This document shows positions 32,864 to 37,624 of a DNA stretch of 64,000 nucleotides, piece by piece. The notes beneath the pieces are model-generated. The model ran no database searches and was not told the DNA's origin. It was given only the letters and a program-made list of their open reading frames with translations. The first letter of the stretch is position 1. The number at the start of each line of letters is the position of its first letter. Source of the DNA: Methanobacteriota archaeon (GTDB lineage Archaea > Methanobacteriota > Methanobacteria > Methanobacteriales > Methanobacteriaceae); the NCBI GenBank assembly GCA_963787255.1, contig CAWBCJ010000010.1, positions 128,001-192,000 of the forward strand. Reading direction: 5' to 3'. The translations under genes were made by a program, and so were the position numbers.

Positions 32864-33199
32864 TTGAGCGATATTGAAGAATTAAGACGAAAAAGAATGC
32901 AAGAGCTACAACAACAGGCTGCAGCACAGCAGACAAATTCATATGAACAAGAACAGGCTCGCCAGCAATTAGAAGCTCAAAAAAGACAAGTTATGGTGCA
33001 AATACTGACTCCTGAAGCTAGAAGCCGACTTGCAAACCTTAGATTAACCCGACCAGAAATGGTTGAACAGCTCGAACTTCAACTTATTCAACTTGCCCAG
33101 GCGGGTCGAGTTAATGCAAAAATAACTGATGAACAGCTGAAACAACTCCTTAAAAATCTTTCTGGTCAAAAAAGAGAGATAAACATAACAAGAAGATGA
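32864..33199 (+). CDS. PDCD5-like DNA-binding protein
   Basis: [22 protein letters not shown]; conserved position after rps19e. Confidence 0.93.
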
Positions 33200-33792
33200 A
33201 AACGTGTGTTCTCTACAGCGGGGGAAAAGACAGTTCCCTTATGGCTGTGATACTTCAAAAATTAGGTTATAAAATTGAACTGGTAACCTTAAACTTTGGA
33301 GTTTTCGATTCATTTAAACCGGCAGCACAATCAGCAGCATCCCTAGGCTTTAAACACCATATTTTAAAGGCAGATACAAAAATTGTTGAAAAAGCAACCA
33401 GAATAATCATTGATGATGGATTTCCCAACAATGGAATTAATTACATCCATAAAGAGGCGCTAGATATTGTCGCTTGTTATTACGATGTGGTTGCAGATGG
33501 AACAAGAAGGGATGACAGAATTCCTAAGCTGGAAGGAAGAGAAATAAACAGCCTTGAAAGCCGGAAAAATGTTGAATACTTGACTCTCCGTGGTTTTGGA
33601 CATAAAACAATAAATAATTTATCTGAAAATCTCTTTGATGTCAAGAAAGAACAGACTAGCATGAAAAATAACTCCGATTACGAGATTGAAATCAGATACC
33701 TTATAAACGAGATGGAAGGAAAAAAGTCAGCTGATAATATATTTCCAAGCCATATACAATCTAGAGTGGTAGGCTGGAAAAATGAAATTTAA
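33196..33792 (+). CDS. PP-loop (adenine nucleotide alpha hydrolase) family protein
   Basis: [20 protein letters not shown]. Confidence 0.88.
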
Positions 33793-35599: not shown

Positions 35600-35641
35600 A
35601 ATTATTTTTAATTCTGGAAATCTAAAAAGGAAGTGGATATT

Positions 35642-36817
35642 TTGTTTGAATCACTTAAAAAGAAATTCAGCGGTACTGTAGGAAAGATAAGTGATAAATT
35701 CTCAGTCGAGGAAGAAACAGAAGAAAACGCTCCTGTAGAAAAAAATCCAGAAGAAGTAAAAAAAGAAGAGCCTGAAGAAACCTTTGAAAAACTGGAAGAA
35801 ATTCAAAAACCAGCTGAAGAAAAGGAAACCGAAGGAGTTAGAGGAAAATTATCTGGAATTTTTTCCAGGGAAAAAAAGGAAGAAAAATCTGAAGAAAACC
35901 CCGAAGAAACTCCCAAAGAGATTGAAGAAGAAACAGAAGAAGAATCAGGAATATTCTCTTTTGTCACCCAAAAAACAATTTCTGAAAAAGATATTGAAGA
36001 TATACTCTTTGAACTTGAAATGTCTTTACTTGAAAGTGATGTTGCCCTTGAAGTTGCAGAAAAGATTATTAATTCTGTAAAGGAAGACCTTGTGGGTAAA
36101 AAAATTAAAAGAAGAAGTGACGTAGCAGAATTTACGCGGGCTGCCCTTAGAAAAGCAGTATCTGAAATACTTGGTGTTGAAACTCGAGATCTTAAAGAAA
36201 TGGCTGAAAACGCACGAAAAACCGGTGAACCCCTTAAAATCATGTTTGTAGGGATTAATGGTACTGGAAAAACAACTACAATTGCTAAAATAGCTACATT
36301 TTTCATAAATGAAGGATATACTCCAGTAATCGCTGCTTCTGACACTTTTAGAGCCGGCGCTATCGAGCAGATTGGGCACCATGCTGAAAATATCGGGGTA
36401 AAACTAATAAAACATAAAAAAGGTGCAGATCCTGCTGCAGTGGCTTATGATGCTGTTGAACACGCAAGAGCAAAAGGAAAAGAAATAGTTCTAATTGATA
36501 CTGCTGGTAGAATGCAGACAAATGTGAACCTAATGGATGAAATGAAAAAGATTAAGCGTGTTGTAAAGCCTGATATTATAGTTTACGTTGGTGATTCTCT
36601 TACAGGAAACGATGCAGTTGATCAGGCCTCTAAATTTGATGATGCTGTGGGTATTGATGGAATAATTCTTACCAAAGCTGATGCAGATGCAAAAGGTGGT
36701 GCTGCACTTTCCATCGGATACGTAATTAATAAACCAATACTATTTTTAGGTATTGGACAATCATATGATGATATAATGGAATTTAAGCCTGATTGGATGG
36801 TTGATCAGTTAATTTAA
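35642..36817 (+). CDS. ftsY: Signal recognition particle receptor FtsY
   Basis: Acidic N-domain, GINGTGKTT, DTFRAGA, DTAGR, TKAD. Confidence 0.97.
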   Translation: MFESLKKKFSGTVGKISDKFSVEEETEENAPVEKNPEEVKKEEPEETFEKLEEIQKPAEEKETEGVRGKLSGIFSREKKEEKSEENPEETPKEIEEETEEESGIFSFVTQKTISEKDIEDILFELEMSLLESDVALEVAEKIINSVKEDLVGKKIKRRSDVAEFTRAALRKAVSEILGVETRDLKEMAENARKTGEPLKIMFVGINGTGKTTTIAKIATFFINEGYTPVIAASDTFRAGAIEQIGHHAENIGVKLIKHKKGADPAAVAYDAVEHARAKGKEIVLIDTAGRMQTNVNLMDEMKKIKRVVKPDIIVYVGDSLTGNDAVDQASKFDDAVGIDGIILTKADADAKGGAALSIGYVINKPILFLGIGQSYDDIMEFKPDWMVDQLI

Positions 36818-36908
36818 ATTAATCATAAAGATATTTTTGAGTATTGTAAAAATCTTCTTTACAGTACCGCTTAAAATATTAAAATTAATAAAAGTAGGAG
36901 TGAATAAA

Positions 36909-37001
36909 ATGTCAAAAGTTAAAGGAACTAAAGTTAGAACAAGGCAAAAAAAGACTTATAAAAAAGCTGGAAGTAAAAGAGGAAGAGCTTGTAAGCACTA
37001 A
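36909..37001 (+). CDS. 30-aa highly basic peptide (not in ORF track)
   Basis: SD AGGAGTGA; MSKVKGTKVRTRQKKTYKKAGSKRGRACKH. Confidence 0.65.
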   Translation: MSKVKGTKVRTRQKKTYKKAGSKRGRACKH

Positions 37002-37339: not shown

Positions 37340-37624
37340 TTATATTTGGATGTTTTTATAATTGAATGGTACAACTTCTTTAATTTCCACATTAAGTGGT
37401 TTAAAAAAGCTTTTTATATTTTTAGCATTTTCAGTATTTATTATGTAAAATCCTTTATGGGTGGAGTGTTTTTCTTTTGGACAGCTAATATAAGCTTCTT
37501 CTAGTTTAATGTTATGCTTTTTTATATTTTTTTCAGAAAAAATCTCTTTAAGCATTTCCACACCTTCATCTGTTTTAAGGGGGCATTTTTTACCATCATG
37601 TTTATTTGTAGCAGCAAATAATAT
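37340..37624 (-). CDS. Hypothetical alpha/beta protein with probable ATA start
   Basis: SD GAGGTGA followed by in-frame ATA-LFAATNKHDGKKCP..., 21 codons upstream of the track start. Confidence 0.65.
   Translation of the reverse strand: MLFAATNKHDGKKCPLKTDEGVEMLKEIFSEKNIKKHNIKLEEAYISCPKEKHSTHKGFYIINTENAKNIKSFFKPLNVEIKEVVPFNYKNIQI

What the first reader, a model, noticed from the sequence alone, without database searches (positions are those of the whole stretch)
36909..37001. Unannotated 30-aa Lys/Arg-rich ORF after the ribosomal protein/ftsY operon: candidate new small ribosome-associated protein
Seen: SD AGGAGTGA at normal spacing, then MSKVKGTKVRTRQKKTYKKAGSKRGRACKH. It has 13 K/R in 30 residues, no acidic residues, and codons like the neighbouring r-protein genes (AAA, AGA, GGA, ACT). 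It follows rps19e-rpl39e-rpl31e-aIF6-rplX-pfdA-ftsY on the same strand. Known: tiny basic peptides (eL41, bTHX, bS22) bind inside rRNA and are often missed by annotation. It lacks the eL41 Trp/KKR signature but has a bTHX-like K/R/G/T/Y composition. Inference: a lineage-specific small ribosomal or nucleic-acid-binding protein.
Basis: partly seen in the sequence, partly recalled or inferred. Interest (0 to 1): 0.7.

Follow-up and report, generated by a model that had tools for sequence, protein, structure and literature searches.

The report
Conserved tiny basic protein of Methanobacteriaceae
The 30-codon Lys/Arg-rich reading frame is a real, strongly conserved gene found in almost every genome of one family of methanogenic archaea and nowhere else; it probably makes a small peptide that clamps onto RNA or DNA, possibly in the ribosome, but its link to the ribosomal-protein operon is not conserved and its partner is unknown.

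Summary
The ORF (36909-37001, +) and its Shine-Dalgarno site are as described. It is a genuine protein-coding gene. A profile of orthologues found it in 270 of 286 sampled genomes of the window's own family (268 strongly, 25 of 27 genera). It found nothing in 9, 5 and 1 genomes of three sister families. Start, stop and Shine-Dalgarno site are conserved, and conservation ends at the stop codon. Third codon positions vary in 28 of 29 codons against 11-12 of 29. dN/dS is about 0.20 in this frame only.

The protein has no Pfam, NCBIfam, PHROG or PDB relative. A search of 1.84 billion proteins returned only family members. Public records call orthologues "hypothetical protein".

The gene follows ftsY in only 5 of 23 genus-mates and sits beside unrelated metabolic genes elsewhere. 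Codon usage does not discriminate. eL41, eS30, bS21 and AT-hook membership were tested and not met.

Best reading: a family-restricted, extended polycationic microprotein that binds a structured nucleic acid. The ribosome is the leading but unproven candidate. This scan had not noted the family before.

The parts
36896..36903 (+). Shine-Dalgarno site AGGAGTGA, 5 nt before the start codon
   Evidence: An SD-like motif (GGAG/GAGG/GAGT) starts 10-15 nt before the ATG in 57 of 57 distinct orthologous upstream regions (sequences).
36909..37001 (+). Coding sequence of the 30-aa basic microprotein (stop included)
   Evidence: Orthologues. Alignment A2 of 40 distinct proteins. dN/dS 0.20, and this is the only frame open in 50 of 50 distinct sequences.
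36834..36838 (+). T5 run 17 nt after the ftsY stop codon; possible end of the ftsY transcript (inference only)
   Evidence: Sequence. That oligo-T runs act as archaeal terminators is general knowledge. Not tested here.
35633..36817 (+). Upstream neighbour ftsY (context only, not a conserved partner)
   Evidence: Pfam SRP54 and SRP54_N. It is the upstream neighbour in 5 of 23 genus-mates only.

Best explanation
Window 36909-37001 is a genuine, independently translated gene for a 30-residue, extremely basic (+13), acid-free microprotein. It belongs to a previously unnamed family (28-35 aa, consensus MAKVKGTNxRTRPKxxYxKxGSKRGRGVKH) that is restricted to, and nearly universal in, the window's own family of methanogens (it includes named Methanobrevibacter species, so presumably Methanobacteriaceae). 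SHOWN: it is coding, under purifying selection and family-restricted, it has no detectable homologue, it has its own SD, and it moves around the genome as a single-gene unit. INFERRED: the peptide has no hydrophobic core and is predicted to be extended rather than helical. Specific Gly, Thr and Tyr positions are fixed among the Lys/Arg. So it most likely folds only on a partner and works by threading its fixed Lys/Arg side chains along the phosphate backbone of a specific structured nucleic acid. The most likely partner is ribosomal RNA, which would make it a lineage-specific ribosomal or ribosome-associated protein. My odds: real gene 0.97; nucleic-acid binder 0.75; ribosome-bound 0.35-0.4. 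The confidence given below is for the whole statement, with 'ribosome as the leading candidate' rather than proven.
For: Presence: 24 of 24 same-family genomes with the single protein. With profile A1, 270 of 286 (268 at E <= 6.6e-8; the two others are noise-level partial matches). One copy in the own genome.

Coding signal over 55 loci and 50 distinct sequences: third positions are variable in 28 of 29 codons against 11 and 12 of 29. Median dN/dS is 0.20 over 1193 usable of 1225 pairs. The five other frames give 0.43-2.3 and carry stops in 6 to 50 of 50 sequences.

Conservation begins about 30 nt before the ATG and stops at the stop codon.

Invariant in 40 distinct proteins: M1 K3 K5 G6 T7 R10 K19 G21 K23 G25 R26. 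At 90% or more: V4 T11 R12 K14 Y17 K29. This pattern suggests a specific partner rather than a generic polycation.

AlphaFold2 with the 40-sequence alignment gives mean pLDDT 64, no helix and an extended chain.

Conservation is comparable to a true small r-protein in the more distant genera. Microprotein identity to the window is 71, 73, 67, 60 and 57% in five genomes, where eL39 is 94, 92, 76, 75 and 63%.

Precedent: tiny basic r-proteins are often missed. L41e 'was missed in many genomes' and 9 archaeal r-proteins are patchy (passages of PMC3353972 seen).
Against: Nothing ties it physically or genomically to the ribosome. Its neighbours differ between clades: FtsY, G1P-dehydrogenase-like Fe-ADH_2, ProRS, a pseudomurein-binding-repeat protein, ArgJ, acetyl-CoA synthetase, nitroreductase and UvrD.

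Codon usage is not distinguishable from background (P = 0.12) or from highly expressed genes (P = 0.18).

It has no similarity to any r-protein family or to any PDB ribosome chain.

It was not found in 16 of 286 family genomes. Five of these were searched again at E <= 10 and four again gave no match, among them one four-contig, 92%-complete genome; the fifth gave only sub-significant partial matches (best E 0.046). Two further genomes of 96% and 94% completeness, from two other genera, gave only noise-level matches.

Sister families do without it (0 of 9, 0 real of 5, 0 of 1). No syntenic small basic ORF lies beside egsA there. So it is not needed for the basic archaeal ribosome.
Confidence: 0.4

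Rival explanations
1. A small nucleoid or DNA-binding peptide. The conserved K-R-G-R-G/A segment inserts Arg side chains into the minor groove of the AT-rich genome, in the manner of an AT-hook. It would act as an abundant chromatin accessory, not as a ribosome component.
For: Own genome GC is 33%. The segment G21-S-K-R-G-R-G is the best conserved part. The chain is predicted extended and non-helical. There is no conserved linkage to translation genes. The resemblance of R-G-R to the AT-hook core is recalled, not computed.
Against: No Pfam match of any of the 40 members to an AT-hook model at E <= 10. The residue after R26 is G or A in 40 of 40 sequences and never the Pro of the recalled R-G-R-P core. 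Generic DNA-coating polycations usually tolerate more sequence change than the 11 invariant positions seen here (inference).
Confidence: 0.22
2. A basic microprotein that binds another RNA or RNP (SRP RNA, RNase P RNA, tRNA, an sRNA), or that modulates a protein or complex, as the small proteins of Methanosarcina do for the Mtr complex.
For: It follows ftsY (the SRP receptor) in the window and 4 genus-mates, and precedes proS in 9. Small archaeal proteins that regulate enzyme complexes are known (abstracts of PMC13370731 and PMC12774963 in the listing).
Against: No neighbour is conserved across genera. The extreme charge without hydrophobic residues fits nucleic acid better than a protein interface (inference).
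Confidence: 0.2
3. Not a functional protein: a chance ORF in AT-rich DNA, the shadow of an antisense gene, a leader peptide, or a conserved non-coding RNA.
For: The complementary frame is also open in the window (28 aa) and in 44 of 50 orthologous sequences. The sequence is A-rich and of low complexity.
Against: The antisense frame has dN/dS of 2.3. Variation falls on sense third positions. SD, start and stop are conserved across 25 genera. Rfam gives no match near its thresholds (best 23.9 bits against a gathering score of 51, none over the ORF). The downstream gene is not conserved, so a leader role is excluded.
Confidence: 0.03

Closest known systems
Tiny basic ribosomal proteins buried in rRNA (eL41/eS32, eS30, eL39, bTHX, bL34/bL36 as a kind)
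   Same: Size (28-35 aa), very high Lys/Arg content, no acidic residues, near-universal presence within the lineage (one copy in most genomes, two in some), strong SD, frequently overlooked or unnamed in annotation.
   Different: No sequence relationship to any of them (Pfam at E <= 10; PDB chains at E <= 10). Not linked to r-protein operons outside one sub-clade. Predicted extended and Gly-rich rather than helical. Ribosome binding not shown.
Bacterial ribosomal protein bS21 (PF01165)
   Same: A short motif, Y-x-K-[P/A]-x-x-[K/E]-R-x-R, aligns with FYEKPTTERKR of bS21. 4 of 40 members give sub-threshold Pfam hits to the C-terminal half of the model (best E 0.0067, 16.6 bits against a cut-off of 27).
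   Different: hhalign probability is 0.2% over 11 columns. No bS21 chain of the PDB is hit at E <= 10. It lacks the whole N-terminal half. Conserved glycines stand where bS21 continues (from recall) as a helix.
AT-hook / RG-rich nucleic-acid-binding peptides
   Same: A conserved K-R-G-R-G core inside a basic, Gly/Pro-containing, extended peptide, in an AT-rich genome.
   Different: The defining Pro after R-G-R (recalled) is absent in 40 of 40 sequences. No Pfam match. It is a free-standing 30-aa protein and not a motif within a larger protein.
Orthologues already in public databases as 'hypothetical protein' (e.g. KZX10415.1, OQD58448.1, AMK15126.1 / YLM1_0569)
   Same: The same family, 31-34 aa.
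   Different: No name, family or function is attached. No paper in the searched library mentions these identifiers or the N-terminal motif.

Membership tests
Protein-coding gene under selection | Open frame with conserved start and stop in relatives; excess of synonymous change | tested here: met
   Open in 50 of 50 distinct sequences, dN/dS 0.20, third positions variable 28 of 29 against 11-12 of 29. The other five frames fail.
Protein-coding gene under selection | Translation-initiation signal | tested here: met
   SD-like motif 10-15 nt before the ATG in 57 of 57 distinct upstream regions.
Ribosomal protein (generic) | Stoichiometric presence in purified ribosomes | not testable with these tools
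   No structure or MS data. No RNA run was listed. No PDB chain matches.
Ribosomal protein (generic) | Near-universal presence in the lineage | tested here: met
   268 strong matches in 286 family genomes and 25 of 27 genera. Most genomes have one copy, some two.
Ribosomal protein (generic) | Conserved linkage to r-protein or translation operons | tested here: not met
   After ftsY and the r-protein cluster in 5 of 58 loci. The other neighbours are metabolic or unrelated.
Ribosomal protein (generic) | Codon usage of highly expressed genes | tested here: inconclusive
   86th percentile of all genes. P(background >= observed) = 0.12; P(high set <= observed) = 0.18.
eL41/eS32 (PF05162) | Match to the family model | tested here: not met
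   No Pfam hit at E <= 10. The six-frame search of the own genome with PF05162 gave no match at E <= 1, but that model also stayed under its cut-off in all 14 control genomes, so the test is weak.
eS30 (PF04758) | Match to the family model | tested here: not met
   No Pfam hit. No match in the own genome at E <= 10, nor in 81 genomes of the phylum at E <= 0.001.
bS21 (PF01165) | Match over the curated cut-off, or significant profile-profile similarity | tested here: not met
   Best 16.6 bits against a cut-off of 27, in 4 of 40 members. hhalign probability 0.2%.
AT-hook | R-G-R-P core (recalled) and a match to the Pfam model | tested here: not met
   G or A, never P, after R26 in 40 of 40 sequences. 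No Pfam hit.
Phage or defence small proteins | Match to a PHROG family | tested here: not met
   0 of 40 members match any PHROG at E <= 1. PADLOC was not searched.

The most novel reading that the evidence does not exclude
The peptide is a new, family-specific ribosomal protein, the first known for Methanobacteriaceae. It arose de novo at the base of the family and threads in extended form through a pocket of rRNA. If so, archaeal ribosomes still gain tiny lineage-specific proteins, including in the dominant methanogens of gut and rumen.
Probability: 0.33. Interest if true: 0.7.

Novelty: new member of a known kind. Interest (0 to 1): 0.5.

Why it matters
The family holds named Methanobrevibacter species and, from general knowledge, the main methane producers of the human gut and the rumen. 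A 30-residue protein kept in nearly every genome of the family, and absent from all its relatives, is core biology with no function attached. If it sits in the ribosome, it would be a lineage-specific ribosomal protein and a possible family-specific handle on these organisms. If it binds DNA, it would be a new archaeal chromatin component. Either way it is a clean, cheap target: the peptide can be made synthetically and looked for by top-down mass spectrometry or cryo-EM. It also shows that such genes still lack a family model in Pfam and NCBIfam.

Tried and rejected
Homology: Pfam and NCBIfam with the single protein, Pfam and PHROGs with all 40 members, and PDB sequences with A1, A2 and one member gave nothing beyond the sub-threshold bS21 hits. 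The ESM Atlas gave only unnamed small clusters under 0.9. The HMMER search of 1.84 billion representatives gave 17 hits at E <= 0.001. Sixteen were family members or mis-called versions of them. One was spurious, a 460-aa repeat protein. No fused form was seen.

bS21 lead: I fetched E. coli rpsU, collected relatives (only close gammaproteobacterial ones were listed, so A3 is a narrow profile) and ran hhalign. Rejected.

eS30 and eL41 replacement idea: eS30 was not found in any of 81 genomes of the phylum, including the families that lack the microprotein. So there is no complementary pattern. The eL41 model was uninformative.

Sister families: no profile match and no small basic ORF near egsA in 5 genomes.

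Promoter: TATA-like matches upstream show no preferred distance, so the promoter and 5' end are unresolved.

Codon adaptation: inconclusive. The first attempt was dominated by GC-rich foreign genes and was redone without them.

Expression: no RNA holder was listed.

Complex prediction was not used, because there is no candidate protein partner and RNA cannot be given. PADLOC was not searched.

Literature: no paper holds the N-terminal motif, the locus tags or the UniProt ids. Searches on small proteins, ribosome profiling and Methanobrevibacter gave only unrelated work. Supplements were closed, so a proteomics table could list an orthologue without my seeing it.

Earlier findings of the scan: nothing on this family. 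They held only analogous basic microproteins in other phyla, which I did not use as evidence.

Full report
**1. The observation**

The sequence is as described. AGGAGTGA lies at 36896-36903 and ATG at 36909. Thirty codons give MSKVKGTKVRTRQKKTYKKAGSKRGRACKH, followed by TAA at 36999-37001. Thirteen of 30 residues are Lys or Arg and none is acidic.

Pfam confirms the upstream same-strand genes: S19e, L39e, L31e, aIF6, L18Ae/LX, prefoldin and FtsY.

The ORF is unusual for this genome. Only four ATG-ORFs of 20-60 aa in 2.47 Mb combine K+R >= 40%, at most one acidic residue and an SD-like motif.

**2. It is a real gene**

The single protein found a full-length match in 24 of 24 other genomes of the same family. 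It found none in 16 genomes of four other families. A profile of 16 orthologues (A1) was run over 301 genomes of the order:
- It matched 270 of 286 family genomes.
- It matched 0 of 9 genomes of family f2.
- It matched 1 of 5 genomes of family f3, at E = 0.84, which is noise.

Two of the 270 (E = 0.64 and 0.21) are partial noise matches. That leaves 268 robust matches in 25 of 27 genera. Most of the 16 genomes without a match are incomplete (67-95%). Five were searched again at E <= 10. Four again gave no match, and the fifth gave only sub-significant partial matches (best E 0.046). Some genomes have two copies.

In all 58 loci that I read, the frame starts with M-[A/S]-K-[V/I]-K-G-T and is closed by a stop after 28-35 codons. 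An SD-like motif starts 10-15 nt before the ATG in 57 of 57 distinct upstream regions.

Nucleotide conservation begins about 30 nt upstream and ends at the stop codon. Over 50 distinct sequences:
- Third codon positions vary in 28 of 29 codons, against 11 and 12 of 29 for first and second positions.
- Median dN/dS is 0.20.
- The five other frames give 0.43-2.3 and contain stops. This includes the complementary frame, which is open in the window.

Rfam finds nothing.

**3. What the family looks like**

The 40 distinct proteins (A2) give the consensus MAKVKGTNxRTRPKxxYxKxGSKRGRGVKH. Invariant positions are M1 K3 K5 G6 T7 R10 K19 G21 K23 G25 R26. Nearly invariant are V4 T11 R12 K14 Y17 K29. One genus has a two-residue deletion. 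Others carry short basic C-terminal extensions.

AlphaFold2 with this alignment predicts an extended chain without helices, at mean pLDDT 64.

The family has no relative:
- No Pfam, NCBIfam or PHROG family.
- No PDB chain at E <= 10.
- No useful Atlas neighbour.
- In 1.84 billion representative proteins, only 17 hits. Sixteen are the family itself and one is spurious.

Gene callers do find it. The window's exact product is in the collection without a name. Named records call orthologues 'hypothetical protein' in Methanobrevibacter curvatus, M. arboriphilus and M. olleyae. No paper in the searchable library mentions the motif or these identifiers.

**4. Context is not conserved**

Within the window's genus the gene follows ftsY in 5 of 23 loci. 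In one of those only 25 nt separate it from the ftsY stop. In the other 18 it lies divergently from a G1P-dehydrogenase-like gene (Fe-ADH_2). Its downstream neighbour there is prolyl-tRNA synthetase in 9 loci and a pseudomurein-binding-repeat protein in 9.

In other genera it follows ArgJ (7 loci) or acetyl-CoA synthetase (6). It also lies between an unnamed gene and a UvrD helicase (5), or before a nitroreductase (8).

So it behaves as a stand-alone cistron. I could not locate a promoter.

**5. Tests of function-related claims**

Codon usage. After removing GC-rich foreign genes, an axis that places EF-1alpha, Mtr and Mer genes at one end was used to score the ORF. The ORF lies at the 86th percentile. 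That is compatible with both background and highly expressed genes. AAA, AGA and GGA are simply the commonest codons in this genome.

Known small r-proteins:
- eS30 is found neither in the own genome nor in 81 genomes of the phylum. No complementary loss singles out this family.
- The eL41 model is too weak to say anything.
- Four of 40 members give sub-threshold hits to the C-terminal half of bacterial bS21. A profile-profile comparison with a bS21 alignment built from E. coli rpsU relatives gives probability 0.2% over 11 columns. Rejected.

AT-hook. The K-R-G-R-G segment recalls the AT-hook core. The Pro that follows it there is never present, and no Pfam match exists.

Sister families have no small basic ORF at the syntenic egsA locus.

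Conservation is somewhat lower than that of eL39 in close genera and similar in distant ones.

**6. Reading**

Shown: a real, family-restricted, near-universal microprotein gene under purifying selection, without homologues.

Inferred: a polycation with fixed Gly, Thr and Tyr positions and no hydrophobic core must fold on a partner. The partner is most likely a structured nucleic acid. Ribosomal RNA is the leading candidate, by analogy with the tiny basic r-proteins that annotation often misses (passages of PMC3353972). Nothing here demonstrates that. A DNA-binding role, or another RNP role, remains open.

No expression data could be obtained.

**7. Verdict**

It is a new family of a known kind (small basic nucleic-acid-binding or ribosomal microproteins). 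It is of moderate interest and directly testable by MS or cryo-EM of ribosomes from this family.

Noticed in passing
G000 contigs C26 (about 110-130 kb), C9 and a few genes elsewhere; not in the window: 36 of 2016 long ORFs have GC >= 45% in a 33%-GC genome (19 on C26, 8 on C9), and those at the extreme of the codon-usage axis on C26 have bacterial-looking products. This is probably binning contamination, which fits the stated 4.57%.
   Followed up: partly
window 37340-37561 (-): A 73-aa ORF convergent with the microprotein gene has no Pfam match. Similar ORFs lie at the same place in two genus-mates that also have the ftsY arrangement (cluster c16).
   Followed up: no
genus g20, e.g. L031/L059 (G128) and L034/L058 (G092): All 6 sampled genomes of this genus carry two intact paralogues of the microprotein, at different loci and with distinct sequences.
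   Followed up: partly
protein P0005 (54 aa, metagenome gene call): A variant with an internal tandem duplication of residues 1-21 of the microprotein. It is either a real duplication or an assembly artefact.
   Followed up: no
window 32864-33199 and 33196-33792 (+): A dsDNA_bind (PDCD5-like) gene and a 198-aa ORF sit between S19e and L39e in the r-protein cluster. They overlap by 4 nt.
   Followed up: no
L069 (G026:C1:616349-617446, -): The egsA-like match in one sister-family genome contains an in-frame TGA. I did not look at it.
   Followed up: no
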